IMG/VR virus record: IMGVR_UViG_3300046791_000443
Span: 6,648-70,647 of that record
Reading direction: 5' to 3' (one strand)
Origin: a virus
Length of the DNA: 64,000 nt
Position numbers and translations under genes: made by a program. The first letter of the stretch is position 1. Every line of letters begins with the position of its first letter. The notes under the pieces were generated by a model that searched no databases, was not told the DNA's origin, and saw nothing but the letters and a program-made list of their open reading frames with translations. Below are positions 23,598-64,000 of the stretch, one piece after another.

Positions 23598-23876
23598 CTA
23601 GTGGAGCTGGATCGCGGGCTCCGAAAATTCATCCTCGAACAGTCTGAGGCCTTGCTTGGCCGCGCCGTTGTCGTCAAGCGCCTTGACCAGGTACATCTTG
23701 CGCCTGGGCGGGCCGTTGCGCCAATCAGGACGTTCCTCGACGAACACATGCCACCAGGAGAGCGCACTGTCGCCGTCGTCGGAGGTACGACACCATTCGA
23801 CGACACAGTGGCAGGCAACCTTAGCCTGGATAGAGCGGCGCGAGACGCTGTCTGGAGAGGGCATTGAGACCATCAT
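23598..23876 (-). CDS. Small hypothetical protein (start uncertain, overlaps the end of terL)
   Basis: ORF fills the gap between terL and portal. Confidence 0.4.
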   Translation of the reverse strand: MMVSMPSPDSVSRRSIQAKVACHCVVEWCRTSDDGDSALSWWHVFVEERPDWRNGPPRRKMYLVKALDDNGAAKQGLRLFEDEFSEPAIQLH

Positions 23877-25500
23877 CGAGGTCGGCCATGCGCTCGGCCG
23901 AGCGGGTCAACATACCGATGTCGCGGAGATGGCGCAAAGCCTGGCTCACCGTGTCGACGAAGTCGTCGTGCTCGGCGTTGGGGAAGGTACCGCACTGCGC
24001 GATCACCTCCTCGGCCCACGATCGATCGGGCGCGTAGACCGCGCCCTCCTCGAAGATGTTCTGCACCGAGTAGAGGCGGGCCACCTTGTCGACGCGACCA
24101 GGGTCGTTGAGCTGGATGCCGAAGCCCTCGTGCGCGAACAGGCGGCGCAGCTCCTGGGCGACGCTGATGCCCGACGCCTTGGCCTCGATCATCAGCTTGT
24201 CGACATGCAGCCCCGGCGCCTTGCGGCCGCACAGCCTGGCGACATGGTTGACCAGGTCGTGCAGCTCCATGCGGCCCGACCAGGCGTACATCAGCATGAC
24301 GCGCTGGGTGGCCTCGCCAAACACGCGGTGGCTCTGGCCGAGGCCACCGTACTTGATGTCGCGGGCCACGACATCGCCCGAGAAGACGCCCCAGATGGTG
24401 AGCGCGCTCGGGTCGTTCATGTTGTCGGTCGTGTAGGCGGTGTCGAGGCTGGCCAGGATGAAGTCCATCGGCGGGTAGGCGGCGGGGCGCAGCGGCTGGC
24501 CGACGTTGTCCATCTCCTCGCCCTCGGGCGGCCACAGCACCCAGTGCTTGCGCTTGATGATGCCGCCGCCGGCCGGCTCGGGCCTCTGCTGGAGCTGCCC
24601 GGCGGTGCGCCAGGAGCCCAGGTTGCCCTTGATTATGGAAACTTCCTTGTGCCCGAAGCGTTCCGGCCACAGCAGCTCGCCCTCTTCGGTGCGCGGATCC
24701 TTCCAGCCGATCGATGTAACAAAACTGCGTCTACTCTCGTACTCCATCGGCAGGCAGAGGTGGGTCCAGTTGGGCCACTCGTCCTTGCGCATGATATGGC
24801 CCGAGAGATCGCTCTCGCCCAGGCGCTGCTGGATGACAATGAACGCGCCGGTCTTGGGATCGTTGAGGCGGGTCGACATGGTGCCATCCCACCAGTCCTC
24901 GTTGGTCGTCTCGATGACGGCATCCGACAGCACCTCCTTGGCGTTGTTGGGGTCGTCGATGATGATGATCTGGCCACCTTCGCCGGTCACACCGCCATCG
25001 ACCGACGTCACCAGGCGCTCGCCGCCCGCGGTGTTGCCGAAGCGGATCTTCTGGTCGTTGTCGGGCGAGATCTTCACCCGATCGCCCCACAGGCGCTGGT
25101 ACCAGGGCGACTTGATCAGGCGGCGGCACTTGATCGAGTCACGCACGCTGAGCTTGAAGGCGTAGGAGCCGCTCACGATCGGCACGCTCGGGCCCGAGGT
25201 CGGGCTGTCGACCGGCTGCAGCCACACCCAGGCCGGGAAGGCCACGCTGCAGATGCTCGACTTGGAGCACCTGGGCGGGATGTGGATCATCAGGCGCGAG
25301 ATCTCGCCATCGACCACGGCCTCGAGATGGTCGGCCAGAGCATCGATCACCCAGCCGCGATTGAACGGCGCCGGATCGACGAACTGCCAGCCACGCTCGA
25401 GGAAGGTCGCGAGGCTCTCCTCGCACTCGAAACGATCGAACGCCTCGAGCTGCCCGGTCGCGTCGAGCTTGCGGCCGTTCCAGTCGATCAGCGTCGACAT
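23821..25500 (-). CDS. terL: Terminase large subunit
   Basis: IPPRCSKS Walker A-like, IIIIDDP Walker B, IQQRL, LWPERF, QQRP, SLDTA nuclease motif, IEAKASG, FPNAEHDDFVD. Confidence 0.95.
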   Translation of the reverse strand: MSTLIDWNGRKLDATGQLEAFDRFECEESLATFLERGWQFVDPAPFNRGWVIDALADHLEAVVDGEISRLMIHIPPRCSKSSICSVAFPAWVWLQPVDSPTSGPSVPIVSGSYAFKLSVRDSIKCRRLIKSPWYQRLWGDRVKISPDNDQKIRFGNTAGGERLVTSVDGGVTGEGGQIIIIDDPNNAKEVLSDAVIETTNEDWWDGTMSTRLNDPKTGAFIVIQQRLGESDLSGHIMRKDEWPNWTHLCLPMEYESRRSFVTSIGWKDPRTEEGELLWPERFGHKEVSIIKGNLGSWRTAGQLQQRPEPAGGGIIKRKHWVLWPPEGEEMDNVGQPLRPAAYPPMDFILASLDTAYTTDNMNDPSALTIWGVFSGDVVARDIKYGGLGQSHRVFGEATQRVMLMYAWSGRMELHDLVNHVARLCGRKAPGLHVDKLMIEAKASGISVAQELRRLFAHEGFGIQLNDPGRVDKVARLYSVQNIFEEGAVYAPDRSWAEEVIAQCGTFPNAEHDDFVDTVSQALRHLRDIGMLTRSAERMADLDDGLNALSRQRLAPLYPG

Positions 25501-30529: not shown

Positions 30530-30801
30530 GGGTCGTACCTCTTCAGAAACATCGGCGTGTTGGGGCCCATCCAGGCGCCCAGGGTGTTGAAGCCGAGGAA
30601 CTCCTCGGCGCCGTCGTAGTCCATGCCGTCGCGCTTCATCAGCACCTCGATGCACTTGTCGAGGTCGTAGCAGGCGATCGGCTCCTGGGTGTGCCTCTGC
30701 ACCATGCCGATGAAGGCATCCTCGAAGCCGTCGGCCAGCAGCGCCTCCTCGTTGAAGGCGGATGCCCACTCGCGCAGGGTCTCCAGGTCACGCTTGTCCA
30801 T
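30526..30801 (-). CDS. Conserved phage hypothetical protein
   Basis: LLADGFEDAFIG...ACYD..KCIE.L...GM....A.EF..FN..GAW.G..TP.F; ATGA-coupled to the Tad2-like gene. Confidence 0.7.
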   Translation of the reverse strand: MDKRDLETLREWASAFNEEALLADGFEDAFIGMVQRHTQEPIACYDLDKCIEVLMKRDGMDYDGAEEFLGFNTLGAWMGPNTPMFLKRYDP

Positions 30802-30809
30802 CAGAACAC

Positions 30810-30892
30810 CTACCACCCTTTATGGGGCCCCTACAACACCGTAATGGGGCCCCAGTTTCTCTACCACCCTTTTAGGGGCCCCTGGGGCCCCC
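30810..30892. repeat. Cluster of GGGGCCCC palindromes and direct repeats
   Basis: ctaccacccttt..ggggcccc at 30810 and 30861; four GGGGCCCC octamers within about 70 bp. Confidence 0.7.
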
Positions 30893-30989
30893 GACCTCCT
30901 GTGTCGGTGCAGCTGATCTGAAGCCGTCACCGGGGGCGGCGCGCCGGCCGGCTTTCGGTCGTCTTCGACGACACTACCTGAGCGAGCCC

Positions 30990-31211
30990 TCACTCCGCTG
31001 GTGGCGCCACTACCAATGGCGCCTGCCGGATCTCCTCCACTACCACTAGCGCCCTGGCCACCAGGGCCAGGCCACGGCCCACGACCAGGGCGTGGGTCAG
31101 GCCCAGCGCCTCGACCGGCCGACCGCGGCGATGCAGCTCATCAGCCTGGCGGTGTGCGTCGTCGAGCACCTGCTCATAGCCCGCTAGATCTTGTGCCAGT
31201 GTTGTCGTCAT
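30990..31211 (-). CDS. Small hypothetical protein
   Basis: 73-aa ORF with GAGGAG Shine-Dalgarno. Confidence 0.45.
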   Translation of the reverse strand: MTTTLAQDLAGYEQVLDDAHRQADELHRRGRPVEALGLTHALVVGRGLALVARALVVVEEIRQAPLVVAPPAE

Positions 31212-31233
31212 CCACTAATCTCCTCGATCGCAT

Positions 31234-31261
31234 CGATCGTATAATGTCTATTATGGAAAAT
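31234..31261 (+). other. dif: dif-like XerC/XerD recombination site
   Basis: CGATCGTATAA-TGTCTA-TTATGGAAAAT, 11-6-11 layout comparable to E. coli dif GGTGCGCATAA-TGTATA-TTATGTTAAAT; intergenic AT-rich island. Confidence 0.75.
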
Positions 31262-31319
31262 CTAACCTGATACCAGGTTGAGCTATTACGGTGTCGTAAT
31301 GGCCCAGGGCGAGTGTAGC

Positions 31320-31580
31320 CTATCGCTCGGCCTGGCGCCAGCGCATCAGGCCTCGAGCCAGGTCGCTGGCCACCACACGCGCATCGCGCTTGAGCTCGCG
31401 ATAGCGTTCACCATCGAAGCCCAGCACAGGCATGCGGAAGTCGCTGTTGGCGAAGGCATGGAGCTCGTCGATCGCGGCCTGGAAGCGCGCGAGCACGAGC
31501 GTGTCCTGGGCGTCGTAGGCAGCGCGCAGCACGGGATCGTCGCGCTCGCCGTCACCCGGCCTCGTGATGATCTGCGGCAT
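31320..31580 (-). CDS. Hypothetical protein
   Basis: 86-aa ORF overlapping the end of terS. Confidence 0.5.
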   Translation of the reverse strand: MPQIITRPGDGERDDPVLRAAYDAQDTLVLARFQAAIDELHAFANSDFRMPVLGFDGERYRELKRDARVVASDLARGLMRWRQAER

Positions 31581-32196
31581 CGTCCTCGTCTCCCTTCTCG
31601 TCGTTGTCGATCGCCAGCAGCGCCTGCTTCAGCAGCTGGCGCTGGTGTGGGTTCATATCCCTGGGATTTAGGACCGTGTGAGCATGCAGGTGATTGATCT
31701 GGCCAGTGTGCTCGACACGATCAGGACCGAGCATCTGGATGAGCTTGGCGAGGTCCATCAAGGCTGCTCGCTTGTCGGTCAGCTTGAGCTTGGTGCGCAT
31801 GCCAATGCGCGTGCCAGACGACGTCTTCATCTCCTCGGTGACGATCTCGGTCAGGCTCGCCATCTGATCCCTGGTGACACCGCTGAAATCCACCAGGGCC
31901 TCGTTGTCTTCAGTGAAGGCAATGAAGTCATCGAGGCTGCTGAAGGCCAGCAGTGCCATCTCCCTGATGATCTTCTGCGGATCGACATCATAGCGATCGA
32001 GCCTGGCTGCGATGCGCCTGTCGATCTCGCCTCTGATCCTGGGGTTGGCCAACCACTTCGCACCGACCGAGCTCGCAGTCTTCGGATTTGCGCCCGCGGC
32101 GATCGCCGAGTTGGTCACATGCCGTGTCTTGCAATACTCGAGAATGAACACCTGCTGACGGGCCGTGAACTCTTCGATCGGGAACGTGCGCGCCAT
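31552..32196 (-). CDS. terS: Terminase small subunit
   Basis: T.RQ..FI.EY......T.SAI.AG...KTA...G...L.NP.I N-terminal HTH; E...LAFS; KLKL.DK..AL..L. Confidence 0.9.
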   Translation of the reverse strand: MARTFPIEEFTARQQVFILEYCKTRHVTNSAIAAGANPKTASSVGAKWLANPRIRGEIDRRIAARLDRYDVDPQKIIREMALLAFSSLDDFIAFTEDNEALVDFSGVTRDQMASLTEIVTEEMKTSSGTRIGMRTKLKLTDKRAALMDLAKLIQMLGPDRVEHTGQINHLHAHTVLNPRDMNPHQRQLLKQALLAIDNDEKGDEDDAADHHEAG

Positions 32197-32206
32197 GCAT
32201 CATCTC

Positions 32207-32482
32207 CTAACGCTTCATCCGCAGCGGCCTGTCGATTTGCTCACGAGTGATCCACATACAGCTGTATTCCTGACCAGGAAAGTCACGTTCTGCCTCGATC
32301 AGCGCGAGCTCGCACAGCGTCACGTTCCTGGTCGCCTCACCATACATGAGACAGTCCAGGCGCAACCTGAAGTCACCCCCTCGACACACGAACGGCTGCC
32401 AGGCAACGCCCTGCTCGACACCTGCCGCCTCGATCGGCACGCCCATCACCATCATGATCGTGGCCAGCGTCATCGCCATCAT
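32207..32482 (-). CDS. Hypothetical Cys-containing, possibly exported protein
   Basis: Hydrophobic N-terminus, GAGGAGG Shine-Dalgarno, coupled to the upstream gene. Confidence 0.45.
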   Translation of the reverse strand: MMAMTLATIMMVMGVPIEAAGVEQGVAWQPFVCRGGDFRLRLDCLMYGEATRNVTLCELALIEAERDFPGQEYSCMWITREQIDRPLRMKR

Positions 32483-32745
32483 GACTTGGCCTCCTCGTCG
32501 ATCGGCGCGTTCCAGTACACCCGACAGCGGCCGGCCAGATCCTGGAGCTCGGCCTTGAGCTCGAGCAGCCTGATCACCGCATGCGGGATCGGCGTGTCGC
32601 CAACCAGCCACCTGTGAACCGTCGAGCGATCGACATCACACATCTTCGCCAGGTCGGCATTGAGCAGATCAAGCCGCACCAGCAGATGCGCCAGGTGCTG
32701 GTGGCTGGTGTCGAGCTTCTGGGGGAACGGTATGCCTGTCATCAC
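32479..32745 (-). CDS. XRE/Cro-like helix-turn-helix protein
   Basis: LLNADLAKMCDVDRSTVHRWLVGDTPIP. Confidence 0.75.
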   Translation of the reverse strand: MMTGIPFPQKLDTSHQHLAHLLVRLDLLNADLAKMCDVDRSTVHRWLVGDTPIPHAVIRLLELKAELQDLAGRCRVYWNAPIDEEAKS

Positions 32746-32759
32746 ATCAACCTAATATG

Positions 32760-33015
32760 CCTGGTGCATTTTGCAACATCTCACCGCAGACAACGCCGCG
32801 TGCGCCTGGGGTGCAAAGGTGCAATGGGGTGCGTTGTTTTCTACAGAACCCCTATAAAAGTCAGAGCACCCCACAAGCCAGTAATCTCATCCATCTATAG
32901 GACTTTTAGTAAATATCTTTGCACCTTTGCACCCTACTACTAATAAACTGTTGATATTAAACAAAACCTAGGGTGCAAAGCGGGGTGCATTGGTAGGGTG
33001 CATTGGTGCATTGGT
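32760..33015. other. Candidate replication origin (GGTGCA iterons, inverted repeats, AT-rich core)
   Basis: About nine GGTGCA/TGCACC hexamers; perfect 16-bp inverted repeat 32809-32824 / 32919-32934; AT-rich stretch at 32937-32966; just downstream of the primase. Confidence 0.6.
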
Positions 33016-33019
33016 CGGC

Positions 33020-35380
33020 TCACTCATCAGGCTCCTCCCTGCGCCGCACCAGGTGAAGCCCGGCCCGTTGCTGGGCCGTCAGCGGCGTCCGGTACTGTGG
33101 CACCCACCAGCCGCGCTTGCCCTTGATCGTGGCATAACGCGCCCAGCCCGTGCGCTCGAGCCTGGCGTTGAGATCCTGGCGGCTGACAAATGCGCGCCCC
33201 ATCGGCGTGCCGTAATGCTCGAGCAGCTCCTTGGCCGTGGCGTGCACCCAGCTGTCGTCCGGCTCGGCAGCGCCCTGGCGCCGGTAGTCGAGGTCGCGGA
33301 TGACGTCCTGCACATCGCTGTCGACCTGGTGCTCCTGGCTGACCGCGTTGTGCAGCTCGATCTCCTTGTCGGTCAGCCAGTACTGCTCGCCCTGGTCGGC
33401 CAGGATGGCGACCTGGACCCACAGCTGCTGCAGATCGACGTCGTGCTGCCAGTCGCAGCTCTCCACCGCCAGCGTCCAGAAGCGCCGCTCGCCCGAGGCG
33501 TCGACCAGGAAGCCGGCGGGGTTCACCGTCGCGACGTAGCCCGTGCACCTGGGCCGCTTCTCCTCGCCGCGGCCGTAGGCCGAGCGATAGACGTCGACCG
33601 TGGTGGTGAGGAAATTCTTGAGCGCCGCCGTGTCGCTCTTCCTGAACGAGGCCTCGACCTCACCGAGCTCGACGATCGGCGTCATCGTCGCCCGCCGCAC
33701 CACATCGCGCTCGTTGTTGTTGCCCAGGTGCAGCGTGATGCCGCCCGTCACCCACTGCGGCGGCAGCAGCGCGTGCTGCACCCACTTCGACTTGCCGATG
33801 TCCTGCTTGCCCTGGAGGACGAGACAGTAGCCGACGTCGGTCGGCATCTCGCGGTCCCAGTTGGTCATCGCCACCATCGCCTGGATCAGCCAGCGCCGCA
33901 CCACGATGTCGCGCCACCGCGACAGTGACGGGTCGCGCATCTTCAGGGTGGCCGCCAGGGCGCCGATGCGATCGACGCCGTCCCAGTCCCTGCTGTCGAT
34001 CCAGTCGAGCACCGGATGATAGCGATGCCCATCGGCGTAGGCCGTCATGGCGTGGCGGATGCGATCCTGGGCGTCCATCCCGCACCGCTGGCAGGCGTGC
34101 ACCAGCAGCGCCAGCATGTTCTCGGGCGCCTCCTCGCGATCGTACTCCTCGAGCGTCGCCTCGACCTCGTAGGTCATCACGTTGCGCCTGGCGTGCAGCC
34201 CGATCGCCCGCATCACCGCGTGCACCTTGGCGTCGCTCGTCGACTGCTTGAGCGCGATGTTGCCCTTCGCCGTCAGCGTCACGTTGGGCAGGATCTCCGG
34301 CCCCAGCGCCAGGTCGTCGATGTGGCGCGCCAGCCGCAGCGCCGGGCTGAGCTCGCCCAGGTAGGCGCCGGCCCCAGGTGGTGCCACGAAGCGCACGCTC
34401 TCCTGTCCAGCACGCTGCTCGCGATTTTCACCCGAGCTCCGTTCCAGTATGGCGCCCAGGCGCTGGCCGATCGCCGGGATGTCGATCGCGTCGGTGATGT
34501 CGAGCCGGGCCTCGGGATCCTGCTCGAGGATCCAGGCCTCGAGATCCCTGGTGCGCTTGTCGGCGCAATGGCCGTGCAGGCAGCTGAAGATCCCCGGCAC
34601 CCCAGGATGGTAGTCTGTGCCGTGCTCGGGGTCGGTCGTGTGACCATCCTCCCAGGGACACACGATCGGATACCAGCCGCGGCCACCGCCGCCCTCGCGC
34701 ACCATGCCGTGCTCGAGCAGCCACTCGAACTTGGGATCGACCTGACCCTCGGGCAGCTCGGGCAGCTCGTCCTGCAGCGGCGGCACGCCGGCCGGCAGCA
34801 CATCGAAGCCGACGGCGATGCGCGCCAGGGTGAACAGCCGCTCGTCGTGGTGCTCGAGCACGCGGGCCACGAAGTTGCCGCGCTTGGTGTTGACGCTGCC
34901 AGGCACGCGCAGCAGCCGGTCGGCGCGCTTGGCGCCTTTATCGGTAAATCCGGCCTCGGCCAGGGCCTCGATCAGGGCATGGGCGTCGGCCGGCGCCACC
35001 GGCTCCTCCAGGACATAAAACCACTGCTCGTTGCCTGGGCTGGTCTCTATGCGGGTTGTAGGGGGCAGGGGAATTTTATCGGGGTGGATGCGGCTGTTGG
35101 GCGCCGTGCCGACGTCGTCGAGGCCGATCACCCAGGTGCGCAGCAGATCCGCGGCACCCTTCCTGACCCGCTGCTGGCGGGCGCCCGTGACGCGCACAGT
35201 GGATATGCAGAAGTAGAGCCGGCCAACCGGCTGCGCCTCGCGCCCCTCGCGCCAGCGCCGCGACCTGAAGTCGGGCTTGCCGTCCTCGAAGTCCTTGTCG
35301 CCGCCGATCGCCACCGCCTCGCCCGGATCGTCGGCATTGACACCGGGGAAAATGAACCCCAGAAACTCGTCTACATTCAT
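33020..35380 (-). CDS. Primase-helicase: RepB-like primase N-terminus, Cys/His zinc motif, VapE-like P-loop ATPase
   Basis: LDDVG, IETSPGNEQW.Y.L, RLLRVPGSVNTK, CPW..GHT, CLHGHC, LQGKQDIGKS, VELGE, YRSAYGR, G.RRFW. Confidence 0.88.
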   Translation of the reverse strand: MNVDEFLGFIFPGVNADDPGEAVAIGGDKDFEDGKPDFRSRRWREGREAQPVGRLYFCISTVRVTGARQQRVRKGAADLLRTWVIGLDDVGTAPNSRIHPDKIPLPPTTRIETSPGNEQWFYVLEEPVAPADAHALIEALAEAGFTDKGAKRADRLLRVPGSVNTKRGNFVARVLEHHDERLFTLARIAVGFDVLPAGVPPLQDELPELPEGQVDPKFEWLLEHGMVREGGGGRGWYPIVCPWEDGHTTDPEHGTDYHPGVPGIFSCLHGHCADKRTRDLEAWILEQDPEARLDITDAIDIPAIGQRLGAILERSSGENREQRAGQESVRFVAPPGAGAYLGELSPALRLARHIDDLALGPEILPNVTLTAKGNIALKQSTSDAKVHAVMRAIGLHARRNVMTYEVEATLEEYDREEAPENMLALLVHACQRCGMDAQDRIRHAMTAYADGHRYHPVLDWIDSRDWDGVDRIGALAATLKMRDPSLSRWRDIVVRRWLIQAMVAMTNWDREMPTDVGYCLVLQGKQDIGKSKWVQHALLPPQWVTGGITLHLGNNNERDVVRRATMTPIVELGEVEASFRKSDTAALKNFLTTTVDVYRSAYGRGEEKRPRCTGYVATVNPAGFLVDASGERRFWTLAVESCDWQHDVDLQQLWVQVAILADQGEQYWLTDKEIELHNAVSQEHQVDSDVQDVIRDLDYRRQGAAEPDDSWVHATAKELLEHYGTPMGRAFVSRQDLNARLERTGWARYATIKGKRGWWVPQYRTPLTAQQRAGLHLVRRREEPDE

Positions 35381-46692: not shown

Positions 46693-46869
46693 ATGGCCGC
46701 CAGGATGCCAAAAAACAAGAACACAGTCAGGGCGCATGTTCAGATGCCGCCGGCCTGGAAGAGGCTGATCGATCGTGCTGCGCGCGAGCTCAACATGAGC
46801 CGCAGCAATTTCATCGCCAACGCGGCCAAGACCGCCGCCGAGGCGGCGCTCGTCCAGGCGAAGAAGTAG
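46693..46869 (+). CDS. Ribbon-helix-helix DNA-binding protein (58 aa)
   Basis: Read manually: MAARMPKNKNTVRAHVQMPPAWKRLIDRAARELNMSRSNFIANAA...; GAGGAG Shine-Dalgarno. Confidence 0.7.
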   Translation: MAARMPKNKNTVRAHVQMPPAWKRLIDRAARELNMSRSNFIANAAKTAAEAALVQAKK

Positions 46870-63609: not shown

Positions 63610-64000
63610 CTAGTAGAATTTCCCGTCGGGCTGTGAGCGGTAGCGGTTGCCACCGACACGCCAGAACGAGTTGGTGTCGTTGCTCAGGAACTCGAGTGAG
63701 ACCAGGCGACCCCTGAAACGCGGCGTGATGTACTTCACGGCCTGGGTCAGCGTGAACGGACCGTACACCTTGTCAGGCTCGTTGGGGTACTCCTTGACGT
63801 AGAAGGTGAGCAGGACCGTGGAGGTGGTCGAGCCGGGGGTGTCCCACTTCATGTCGGGCCACACCTGGTCGACGAACATCAGGAGGTCGGCCTCGGTCAG
63901 CGCGAAGTAGCCGGTGCGGAGGAAGGACGTCATCGCCACATTGTCGGCGTCGTTGCCGCGCTCGTGCTCGTAGATCATGCGGCTGGCAGCGCCGGCGGCG
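63610..64000 (-). CDS. C-terminus of a tail tube / packaged-DNA stabilisation protein (5' end outside the window)
   Basis: IYEHE.G.DAD, ..PD, R.RGR, WR.G..R..QPDG C-terminal pattern; frame is open to the window edge. Confidence 0.65.
   Translation of the reverse strand, partial: AAGAASRMIYEHERGNDADNVAMTSFLRTGYFALTEADLLMFVDQVWPDMKWDTPGSTTSTVLLTFYVKEYPNEPDKVYGPFTLTQAVKYITPRFRGRLVSLEFLSNDTNSFWRVGGNRYRSQPDGKFY

What the first reader, a model, noticed from the sequence alone, without database searches (positions are those of the whole stretch)
31234..31261. dif-like Xer site in a tailed phage with no visible integrase
Seen: an intergenic 28-mer CGATCGTATAA-TGTCTA-TTATGGAAAAT in otherwise GC-rich DNA. 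It matches the 11-6-11 dif layout. The right arm differs from the E. coli XerD arm TTATGTTAAAT at 2 positions and the spacer differs from TGTATA at 1. No tyrosine or serine recombinase and no ParA/ParB genes are visible, and the part of the genome outside the window appears to lie within the tail module. Known: host XerCD is hijacked for integration by filamentous phages (CTXphi-type IMEXs) and used by plasmids to resolve dimers. Inference: this podovirus-like phage may integrate at the host dif, or resolve genome multimers, using host Xer proteins only. The arms could also point to the host lineage.
Basis: partly seen in the sequence, partly recalled or inferred. Interest (0 to 1): 0.85.

Follow-up and report, generated by a model that had tools for sequence, protein, structure and literature searches.

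The report
Host-type Xer site in tailed phages
A soil tailed phage with no integrase carries one conserved copy of the 28-base site that alphaproteobacterial hosts use to untangle their chromosomes, which suggests that it borrows the host enzymes to recombine its own DNA.

Summary
Window 31234-31261 reads CGATCGTATAA-TGTCTA-TTATGGAAAAT, and 0 of 100 shuffles gave a match. Its arms are those of alphaproteobacterial chromosomal dif sites, not just E. coli-like ones.

The site is under selection. Seven related phage contigs carry it 18-614 bp downstream of terS, in one orientation. Arm identity is 0.91-0.95, against 0.25-0.28 in the flanks. All seven 6-bp centres differ.

The whole 70.6-kb record has a circular map, one site, and no tyrosine or serine recombinase, XafT, ParA or ParB.

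A collection scan found the same arms in 19 further viral contigs, 23 in all. None of the 24 site-bearing records, counting the window's own, holds an integrase. In several lineages the site lies next to the large terminase gene.

No integrated copy was found: no genome had two sites on one contig, and no phage genes lay beside bacterial dif.

I am about 90% confident that this is a genuine XerC/XerD site. Its use is unsettled:
- Self-recombination of the circular phage genome (resolving multimers or closing the circle, like loxP or a chromid dif with the enzyme supplied by the host): about 0.42.
- Integration at dif, as in IMEXs (integrative mobile elements exploiting Xer): about 0.30.

My four literature searches found no report of a tailed phage with such a site.

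The parts
31234..31261 (+). 28-bp Xer core site (11-6-11)
   Evidence: Sequence read. It is the only match in the window, with 0 of 100 shuffles matching. It is conserved in 7 related phage contigs.
31234..31244 (+). XerC-type arm CGATCGTATAA. The inner 9 nt, ATCGTATAA, are conserved; the outer 2 nt vary.
   Evidence: Pairwise identity is 0.905 over the 9 inner positions among 7 phages. The same 9-mer, with C or T at position 7, occurs in 120 bacterial loci.
31245..31250 (+). Central region TGTCTA, where strand exchange would take place
   Evidence: All 7 relatives have a different centre (pairwise identity 0.587). A roughly 95%-identical strain in runs X3 and X4 reads TAGTCA here (tables 3 and 4).
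31251..31261 (+). XerD-type arm TTATGGAAAAT
   Evidence: Pairwise identity is 0.948 among 7 phages. It is identical to the XerD arm of the Ehrlichia and Rickettsia dif in Carnoy & Roten Table 1 and to 91 of 120 bacterial hits.
31552..32196 (-). Small terminase subunit gene (terS). The site lies 290 nt downstream of its stop.
   Evidence: Pfam Terminase_2, E = 4.5e-21. phrog_51, E = 2.3e-21. This gene was used to find the relatives.
31320..31580 (-). 86-aa ORF between terS and the site; no family match
   Evidence: Coding-type G+C by codon position: 0.76/0.45/0.84. Homologues in L228 (G002) and L234 (G001). No Pfam or PHROG match.
30990..31211 (-). Possible 73-aa ORF that starts 22 nt from the XerC arm; doubtful gene
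   Evidence: G+C by codon position 0.86/0.45/0.73. No family match. No tblastx match in G002 or G003.
32479..32745 (-). 88-aa helix-turn-helix protein upstream of terS, conserved with terS in the clade
   Evidence: Weak HTH matches, E about 0.003-0.005. Weak repressor and terS PHROG matches. Homologues next to terS in L226, L227, L228 and L234.
33020..35380 (-). Primase/helicase (VapE-like); end of the replication module
   Evidence: Pfam VapE-like_dom 7.2e-35 and RepB_primase 1.8e-5. PHROG DNA helicase and primase families.
23821..25500 (-). Large terminase subunit gene (terL), 5.7 kb downstream of the site in the direction of transcription
   Evidence: phrog_38 terminase large subunit, E = 9.6e-79.

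Best explanation
The 28-mer is a genuine binding and recombination site for the host's XerC and XerD recombinases. The phage keeps it in order to recombine with another copy of its own site, not with the host chromosome.

Proposed mechanism:
1. XerC binds ATCGTATAA and XerD binds TTATGGAAAAT.
2. Two phage sites pair. They may lie on a dimer or multimer of the circular genome, or at the two ends of a terminally redundant virion DNA.
3. Strands are exchanged at the borders of the 6-bp centre.
4. The product is a monomeric circle.

The phage-specific centre works like the divergent centres of secondary replicons. It allows self-recombination and disfavours fusion with the host chromosome or with other phages. 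Functionally this is a loxP, or a chromid or plasmid dif, whose recombinase is supplied by the host.

Shown: the identity of the site, its conservation, the circular map, the absence of a recombinase gene, and the divergence of the centres.
Inferred: Xer binding, the partner site, and the biological purpose.
For: (1) Site identity. The arms equal alphaproteobacterial dif arms. Of the 80 titles shown, 71 are alphaproteobacterial, 5 say only 'Proteobacteria' or 'Pseudomonadota', and 4 are other taxa. Published dif sites of Agrobacterium, Brucella, Ehrlichia and Rickettsia have the same arm cores. In an even sample of the class, 81 of 401 genomes have a match at <= 1 mismatch, and 80 of those have exactly one.

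(2) Selection on the arms only. Among 7 phage contigs the pairwise identity is 0.905 (XerC arm), 0.948 (XerD arm), 0.587 (centre) and 0.25-0.28 (60-nt flanks). The position downstream of terS and the orientation are the same in 7 of 7.

(3) One site and no recombinase in all three complete genomes of the clade, G000, G002 and G003. None of 19 further site-bearing viral records has PF00589.

(4) Circular map. The ends of G000 overlap by 138 bp with 1 mismatch, inside an ORF. G000, G002 and G003 are collinear circular permutations of one another.

(5) Centres.
- None of the 23 distinct phage centres is TGTATA, TATATA, GATAGA or GATATA, which make up 80 of the 120 bacterial hits.
- A roughly 95%-identical strain differs at 4 of 6 central positions but at only 1 arm position.
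- The two copies in G813 have identical flanks and arms but differ at 2 of 6 central positions.
- Multi-replicon alphaproteobacteria carry 2-3 sites with the same arms and different centres.
- Val et al. 2008 (PMC2533119, passages read) argue that such divergence prevents fusion of replicons by Xer.

(6) No sign of integration.

(7) Link to packaging. The site lies just after terS in this clade. It lies 167-428 nt upstream of terL in G820, G823 and G824, and it overlaps the 5' end of the longest terL ORF in G827. This recalls loxP lying near pac in phage P1. That P1 fact is recalled from memory; the P1 genome paper is not held.
Against: - No partition genes: ParB_N and AAA_31 matched 0 of 10 records. 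No recognisable plasmid replication or repressor module. A stable plasmid prophage is therefore unsupported. ParM and TubZ were not searched.
- The phage looks virulent. It has its own DNA polymerase, helicase, primase and exonuclease. A lytic phage that packages from concatemers has no obvious need to make monomers.
- The flanks are not conserved, so there are no cer- or psi-type accessory sequences. Recombination would then probably need FtsK at a dividing septum, or an unknown activator. No XafT/DUF3653 was found.
- Closing the circle needs two copies in one virion DNA. That was not shown. G817 may have fixed G/C-rich ends 125 nt from the site, which would fit cos ends rather than redundancy.
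- Every previously described phage-borne dif-like site that I read about acts as attP for integration.
- One bacterial chromosomal dif (L025, in a housekeeping context) has the centre CATGTA. Three phage contigs of another lineage share it. Matching host centres do therefore exist.
- Only 3 GGGNAGGG motifs occur in the genome, with no polarity towards the site.
Confidence: 0.42

Rival explanations
1. IMEX-type lysogeny. The site is an attP. Host XerCD integrates the circular phage genome into the chromosomal dif, or into a secondary dif-like site, as reported for the non-tailed alphaproteobacterial phage Jorvik. The phage is then a temperate tailed phage without an integrase.
For: - A dif-like site plus no integrase is the signature of known IMEXs (passages read in PMC12715192, and in PMC2731167).
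- Jorvik of Rhodobacter capsulatus lacks an integrase, has dif-like attP and attB, and integrates away from the terminus (PMC10589892, passages).
- 0 of 24 site-bearing viral records have PF00589.
- One bacterial chromosomal dif (L025) shares the centre CATGTA with G826, G830 and G831.
- 6 of the 7 centres in this clade start with TG, as in the common TGTATA.
- 4 of 24 records end within 125 nt of a site, where 0.28 are expected (Poisson p about 2e-4). This could reflect branching of the assembly graph at a recombination junction.
Against: - No integrated copy was found. The terS scan of 185,579 species' genomes confirmed no relative. It used only two peptide patterns, so only close relatives would be found.
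- 0 of 120 bacterial dif loci hold phage genes within their loci of up to 8 kb.
- 0 of 401 sampled alphaproteobacterial genomes have two sites on one contig, and by my reading none of their 82 sites has a phage centre.
- Distant portal-bearing elements in 5 of 401 genomes are not on contigs that carry dif.
- Only 1 of 24 records is classed as a provirus. Its site is at 208,887 of 359,044, not at a border.
- The contigs laid on the window show no joint or listed loose end at the site (many rows were not shown).
- Centres differ between near-identical strains. Integration would then require each strain to have a host with a different dif centre.
- No repressor or XafT was recognised.
Confidence: 0.3
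2. XerC and XerD bind, but no productive recombination follows. The bound and bent site would serve another process at the boundary between the replication and packaging modules. Examples: an architectural host factor for terminase assembly at pac or cos, in the way I recall IHF acting at lambda cosB; or a stop for the FtsK translocase.
For: - The site is consistently close to terminase genes in several unrelated lineages.
- Contig ends are enriched near the site.
- FtsK stops at XerCD-dif (PMC2800217, seen in a search listing only).
- The centre is free to vary, as expected if only binding matters.
Against: - The centre changes much faster than the flanks in two near-identical pairs: 4 of 6 positions against about 5% divergence, and 2 of 6 against identical flanks. 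This looks like activity at the centre, not neutral drift.
- The orientation relative to terL is not constant across lineages.
- I know of no precedent for Xer proteins as packaging factors.
Confidence: 0.1
3. Not a Xer site at all. It would be an AT-rich promoter or terminator, or the operator of a phage DNA-binding protein, that merely resembles dif.
For: The 28-mer contains TATAAT. It lies between minus-strand genes, next to two small palindromes at 31264-31279 and 31285-31300. An HTH gene is nearby.
Against: - No sigma-70-type promoter or intrinsic terminator was called in 30800-33100.
- The arms are identical to host dif arms in at least ten viral lineages that share no flanking sequence. 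A phage-specific operator would not do this.
- 0 of 100 shuffles give a match.
Confidence: 0.03

Closest known systems
Chromosomal dif of Alphaproteobacteria (XerC/XerD/FtsK dimer resolution)
   Same: 11-6-11 layout. Arms are identical to those found once per genome in many Alphaproteobacteria. AT-rich and intergenic.
   Different: It sits on a 70-kb phage genome. The centre TGTCTA is not one of the common bacterial centres. No KOPS-like polarity was seen.
dif sites of secondary replicons, such as V. cholerae dif2 and the alphaproteobacterial multi-replicon genomes seen here
   Same: Canonical arms with a replicon-specific central region. Val et al. 2008 argue that this prevents fusions. Azospirillum G006 has 2 such sites and Rhizobium G007 has 3.
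   Different: The replicon here is a virus with capsid, terminase and tail genes and no partition system.
Plasmid multimer-resolution sites cer (ColE1) and psi (pSC101)
   Same: They use host XerCD. The centre differs from dif. The purpose is to monomerise a circular replicon.
   Different: From my recall and Carnoy & Roten's discussion, cer and psi need about 180 bp of accessory sequence and accessory proteins, and cer has an 8-bp centre. Here the centre is 6 bp and the flanks are unconserved.
IMEXs: CTXphi-, VGJphi- and TLCphi-type inoviruses, dif-type double jelly-roll phages, gokushoviruses, and Jorvik
   Same: Phage-borne dif-like site, no integrase of their own, reliance on host XerCD.
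   Different: All of these are non-tailed, and their integrated forms are documented. Here the carriers are tailed dsDNA phages of 40-70 kb, no integrated form was found, the site lies at the packaging module rather than beside lysogeny genes, and no XafT was found.
Phage P1 loxP/Cre
   Same: A single recombination site on a circular or permuted tailed-phage genome near the packaging start. I recall it being used to close the circle of redundant DNA and to resolve dimers. This is recalled; the paper is not held.
   Different: P1 encodes its own recombinase and a ParAB system (Table 1 of PMC8026635, passage read). This phage encodes neither.

Membership tests
Xer (XerC/XerD) core recombination site | Two 11-bp arms in partial inverted repeat, separated by a 6-bp central region | tested here: met
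   CGATCGTATAA / TGTCTA / TTATGGAAAAT. The inner ATAA...TTAT is an inverted repeat. The 6-bp spacing is kept in all 7 relatives and in the 24 stretches found in viral contigs.
Xer (XerC/XerD) core recombination site | Arms match the XerC- and XerD-binding consensus of the host lineage | tested here: met
   The exact arm pattern was found in 120 bacterial loci. Of the 80 titles shown, 71 are alphaproteobacterial. Published dif sites have the same arm cores. 81 of 401 sampled genomes match at <= 1 mismatch.
Xer (XerC/XerD) core recombination site | Bound and cleaved by XerC and XerD | not testable with these tools
   Needs gel-shift and suicide-substrate assays with alphaproteobacterial XerC and XerD.
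IMEX (integrative mobile element exploiting Xer) | Element lacks its own integrase and carries a dif-like attP | tested here: met
   PF00589 and PF00239 are absent from G000. PF00589 is absent from G001-G005 and from 19 other records.
IMEX (integrative mobile element exploiting Xer) | Integrated copies at host dif, flanked by hybrid sites | tested here: not met
   None found. The searches were samples or of limited sensitivity, so integrated copies were not found but are not excluded.
IMEX (integrative mobile element exploiting Xer) | Central region homologous to the host dif on at least the side that is exchanged | tested here: inconclusive
   The host is unknown. TGTCTA shares TGT and the final TA with TGTATA. 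None of the 23 distinct phage centres equals a common bacterial centre. One centre of another lineage, CATGTA, equals the dif of L025.
IMEX (integrative mobile element exploiting Xer) | TLC-type only: a Xer activation factor (XafT, DUF3653) | tested here: not met
   PF12375 gave no match in G000 at E <= 10. The link between PF12375 and XafT is recalled; the term was not found in the paper I searched.
Plasmid cer/psi-type resolution site | Conserved accessory sequences beside the XerC arm | tested here: not met
   The 60-nt flanks are 25-28% identical among the 7 phages, which is random level.
Replicon-specific dif (chromid or secondary chromosome type) | Canonical arms, a 6-bp centre that diverges from the main chromosome's dif, one site per circular replicon | tested here: met
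   One site per complete genome. Circular map. Divergent centres. The host's own centre is unknown.
Replicon-specific dif (chromid or secondary chromosome type) | FtsK-orienting polar sequences that converge on the site | tested here: inconclusive
   Only 3 GGGNAGGG motifs occur in 70.5 kb, with no polarity.
Plasmid prophage (phage-plasmid) | Partition system and/or plasmid replication genes | tested here: not met
   ParB_N and AAA_31 matched 0 of 10 records. No such family was found among the proteins scanned. ParM and TubZ were not searched.

The most novel reading that the evidence does not exclude
Many tailed phages of Alphaproteobacteria have handed a P1-like Cre/lox function to the host. 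A single XerCD site, placed at the packaging module, lets the injected or replicating genome be closed into a circle or monomerised without any phage recombinase. Its fast-changing 6-bp centre acts as a private 'barcode' that keeps the phage from fusing with the host chromosome or with co-infecting relatives. Under this reading the phages may persist through host cell divisions as unintegrated circles, a carrier or plasmid-like state without known partition genes.
Probability: 0.3. Interest if true: 0.85.

Novelty: new variant of a known kind. Interest (0 to 1): 0.72.

Why it matters
In what I read, Xer exploitation by viruses is documented only for small non-tailed phages (inoviruses, microviruses, double jelly-roll phages), and only as integration. 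Here, tailed dsDNA phages of 40-70 kb from at least ten lineages carry perfect host-type Xer arms, have no integrase, and keep the site beside their terminase genes.

If the site drives integration, it reveals a hidden class of temperate tailed phages that integrase-based lifestyle predictors score as virulent. If it drives self-recombination, it is a new way for a phage to close or monomerise its genome with host enzymes, and an example of central-region 'barcoding' outside multipartite bacterial genomes.

Either way, the arms give a host-lineage marker for uncultured soil phages that needs no cultivation. The question can be tested with a two-site plasmid assay and long-read data.

Tried and rejected
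- Close DNA relatives among GenBank phages: one irrelevant 95-nt hit.
- terS as a single query in viral contigs: nothing. An alignment was needed.
- The exact 24-mer in viral contigs: 0 hits.
- tRNA genes as a clue to host or att site: none.
- More distant portal relatives carry no site at <= 3 mismatches. These were MW202675.1, the Bealeia plasmid pBealeia1, HTVC027P, CRP-902 and Caulobacter phage RW. The same holds at <= 5 mismatches in the parts I held.
- terS relatives L004, L006/L007, L140 and others have no dif-like core. L138 is too short to tell.
- 'An integrase replaces the site in relatives that lack it': not seen. G411 has neither. The integrases in G412 and G414 belong to distant proviruses.
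- KOPS polarity: too few motifs.
- The 167-aa ORF upstream of the site in G814 is not a terS homologue (hhalign probability 0.1%).
- Public runs: the phage occurs in soil and rhizosphere metagenome contigs, with word shares of 0.99, 0.40, 0.19 and 0.18. The contigs that were laid bridge the site (X1 record 6, X3 record 22, X4 record 31). No joint or listed loose end falls at 31245-31250, but 346 loose-end rows were not shown and contigs cannot show rare junctions.
- terS profile in 401 Rhizobiales genomes: 4 weak hits (best E = 4.8e-29) with no site nearby.
- Literature: four searches of the held library found no tailed phage with a host-type dif site. This is a statement about those searches only.
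Table S1/S2 of Carnoy & Roten and Figure S3A of the Jorvik paper, which shows its dif-like motif, could not be seen and may bear on the arm comparison.

Full report
**The observation.** One search shows CGATCGTATAA-TGTCTA-TTATGGAAAAT at window 31234-31261 (+). The 28-mer is 29% G+C, in a short AT-rich gap of a window that is about 66% G+C. It lies on a minus-strand gene train. The small terminase gene terS (31552-32196; Pfam Terminase_2, 4.5e-21) comes first, then an 86-aa ORF (31320-31580), then the site, then a doubtful 73-aa ORF (30990-31211). With up to 3 mismatches the arm pattern matches the window only here, and 0 of 100 shuffles gave any match.

**The genome.** The window is bases 6648-70647 of a 70,647-bp IMG/VR virus record, which CheckV rates 100% complete.
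- Its first 138 bases repeat its last 138 with one mismatch, inside an ORF. The assembly therefore closes into a circle of about 70.5 kb.
- Two other complete genomes of the clade, G002 (69.2 kb) and G003 (60.2 kb), are collinear with it but start at different points. The map is circular: either a circular molecule or a circularly permuted one.
- The phage encodes a portal, terL, a major head protein, tail fibres and very large internal virion proteins. It also encodes its own DNA polymerase, helicase, exonuclease and VapE-type primase/helicase.
- No tyrosine or serine recombinase, no DUF3653 and no ParB_N or AAA_31 were found anywhere in the record.
- The only candidate regulators are an 88-aa HTH protein and a 58-aa TacA1-like ribbon-helix-helix protein.

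- Of the 80 titles shown, 71 are alphaproteobacterial (Rhizobium, Azospirillum, Rhodospirillaceae, Rickettsiales, Acetobacteraceae and others). Five say only 'Proteobacteria', and 4 are other taxa.
- Their centres are TGTATA (29), TATATA (25), GATAGA (13), GATATA (13) and rarer ones.
- Carnoy & Roten list the same arm cores for Agrobacterium, Brucella, Mesorhizobium, Ehrlichia and Rickettsia. Caulobacter, Rhodobacter and Novosphingobium have different arms.
- In an even sample of the class, 81 of 401 genomes match at <= 1 mismatch. Eighty of them match once, and the Azospirillum genome G006 matches twice, on different contigs.

The arms are therefore those of chromosomal dif in a large part of the Alphaproteobacteria, which names the host lineage.

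**Conservation.** A terS alignment retrieved relatives from viral and metagenome contigs.
- Seven distinct contigs carry the site: the window, L002, L003, L005, L008, L139 and L142. Their terS identity to the window's runs from 38% to 66%.
- The site is always 18-614 bp downstream of terS, and the XerD arm is always nearest terS.
- Pairwise identity is 0.905 for the 9 inner XerC-arm positions, 0.948 for the XerD arm, 0.587 for the centre and 0.25-0.28 for the 60-nt flanks. The flanks do not align at all.
- All seven centres differ: TGTCTA, TGGACG, TGGCTA, TGTGTA, CGTACA, TGGGTA and TGTGCA.
- Some terS relatives lack the site (L004, L006/L007, L140). So do more distant portal relatives, including cultured Pelagibacter, Roseobacter and Caulobacter phages and a Bealeia 'plasmid'.

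**A wider phenomenon.** The same arm pattern occurs in 24 stretches on 23 contigs of the viral collection, 19 of them outside this clade.
- All-against-all blastn groups some of them: five loci (L229, L236, L239, L243, L244), and a pair (L238, L240). The rest are singletons. By my count from those groupings this makes at least ten lineages, with G+C from 33% to 65%.
- None of the 19 has PF00589. Seven of the 19 are at least 90% complete.
- None of the 23 distinct phage centres is one of the four common bacterial centres.
- Where I looked, the neighbour of the site is the large terminase gene. The gap is 257 nt in G820, 428 nt in G823 and 167 nt in G824. In G827 the site overlaps the 5' end of the longest ORF. 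In G817 the gap is about 1.8 kb if the contig ends are joined. In G829 and G813 it is 4.4 and 5.3 kb. Two of the ten proteins had no match.
- Four of the 24 site-bearing records end within 125 nt of a site, where 0.28 are expected. I cannot say whether this reflects true DNA ends, strain variation or recombination junctions.

**Fast-changing centres.** Contigs of a strain about 95% identical to the window (runs X3 and X4) span the site. They differ from the window by an insertion after 31245, a deletion at 31249 and A>T at 31259. This changes the centre from TGTCTA to TAGTCA and the XerD arm to TTATGGAATAT. That is 4 of 6 central positions, against about 5% divergence elsewhere. In G813 a 344-nt repeat at the two contig ends has identical near flanks and arms but centres TTGTTA and TCTTTA. 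I read this as a wrap-around of a circular genome assembled from two strains, because the sequence outside the first copy is phage DNA and not host DNA.

**Integration was looked for and not found.**
- The terS scan of 185,579 species' genomes confirmed no relative. It used only two peptide patterns, so only close relatives would have been found.
- None of the 120 bacterial dif loci has a tblastn match to any of 157 ORFs of the phage.
- In 401 sampled alphaproteobacterial genomes only 5 have a portal relative, at 28-34% identity, and none lies on a contig with a dif-type site.
- No genome has two sites on one contig.
- All site-bearing contigs of the clade with enough sequence have phage genes on both sides of the site.
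- On the other side of the argument, L025, a chromosomal dif in a housekeeping context (MazG, TatD, MetRS), has the centre CATGTA. This is the same as in three phage contigs of another lineage. Some hosts could therefore match some phages.

**Interpretation.** I am about 90% confident that this is a real Xer site. No phage-specific protein could explain arms that are identical to host dif across lineages that share nothing else. A promoter or terminator reading finds no support.

For its use I favour recombination between two copies of the phage's own site (0.42). Canonical arms with a private centre are what secondary replicons have. Genomes G006 and G007 show this, and Val et al. 2008 explain it as avoiding fusions. 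The map is circular. The site sits at the packaging module, as I recall loxP sitting near pac in P1. Centres differ even between near-identical strains, which only requires each phage to match itself.

The weaknesses are real. There are no partition genes, the gene set looks virulent, there are no accessory sequences, and there is no evidence that a virion carries two copies.

The IMEX reading (0.30) keeps the strength of precedent. Every phage-borne dif-like site described in the papers I read is an attP, including Jorvik in an alphaproteobacterium. The lack of prophages may only mean that the hosts are uncultured.

A binding-only role at pac or cos (0.10) and a non-Xer element (0.03) are the remaining options.

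**Novelty.** Four literature searches found Xer-exploiting inoviruses, microviruses and double jelly-roll phages. They also found plasmid prophages that encode their own Xer-like recombinases (PMC8026635, passages read). They found no tailed phage that carries a host-type dif site without a recombinase. I file this as a new variant of a known kind.

Noticed in passing
window 32805-33018: A cluster of GGTGCA-containing repeats lies in the 274-bp gap between the primase/helicase gene and the HTH gene, in the lowest-G+C part of the window. It includes a perfect 16-nt inverted repeat, GGGTGCAAAGGTGCAA / TTGCACCTTTGCACCC, and three GGTGCATTGGT copies. It looks like iterons or operators, so it may be a replication origin or a regulatory region.
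   Followed up: no
window 31264-31279 and 31285-31300; also near the sites in L002, L003 and L142: Two small palindromes lie just beyond the XerD arm: AACCTG-ATAC-CAGGTT and ATTACG-GTGT-CGTAAT. ATTACGG...CGTAAT-like motifs recur near the site in relatives whose flanks are otherwise unalignable. No terminator was called.
   Followed up: partly
G000:C1 1-138 and 70510-70647 (window 63863-64000 for the second copy): The record is labelled 'linear', but its ends overlap by 138 bp with one mismatch, inside an ORF of about 850 aa. It is therefore a closed circular assembly of about 70.5 kb.
   Followed up: yes
Viral loci L225-L248 (23 IMG/VR contigs): The same alphaproteobacterial Xer arms occur in 19 further viral contigs of other lineages. 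All lack PF00589 and all have unusual centres. Several have the site directly upstream of terL. Four of the 24 site-bearing records end within 125 nt of the site.
   Followed up: partly
G813:C1 1-344 and 63363-63695 (loci L249, L252): A 63.7-kb phage contig (41% G+C) has a repeat at both ends that is 80% identical overall. Each copy holds a Xer site with identical arms and near flanks, but the centres differ: TTGTTA and TCTTTA. I read this as a wrap-around of a circular genome assembled from two strains.
   Followed up: partly
Plasmid records NZ_CP133271.1, CP113869.1 and AP017967.1: 'Plasmids' of the ciliate endosymbionts Candidatus Bealeia and Candidatus Megaera (57-109 kb) encode portal homologues at 25-30% identity. 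pBealeia1 also has a Mu-like head gene and GroES. These look like phage-like episomes in Holosporales and Rickettsiales. No Xer-type site was found in pBealeia1.
   Followed up: partly
G006 (Azospirillum) and G007 (Rhizobium): Multi-replicon alphaproteobacteria carry 2-3 Xer-type sites with the same arms but different centres: TTTCAA and TCAGCA in G006; GATATG, GATAGA and GTTCTA in G007. The sites lie on different contigs, as expected for replicon-specific dif sites.
   Followed up: no
window 31138-31746: In the probable source run X1, a 540-bp contig that holds the site and the 86-aa ORF has depth 14.3, against about 9-10 for its neighbours. A second variant contig of depth 4.3 ends at 31206. 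Two co-occurring strains seem to share this segment.
   Followed up: no
window 46693-46869 (+): A 58-aa TacA1-like (ribbon-helix-helix antitoxin-like) ORF lies directly upstream of the exonuclease gene. No partner toxin was recognised.
   Followed up: no
L255 12589-13407 (G814): In the distant relative G814 the gene just downstream of the Xer site is a PAPS-reductase-domain protein. Upstream lies a VapE-like primase/helicase. The site therefore again marks the boundary between the replication and late modules.
   Followed up: no
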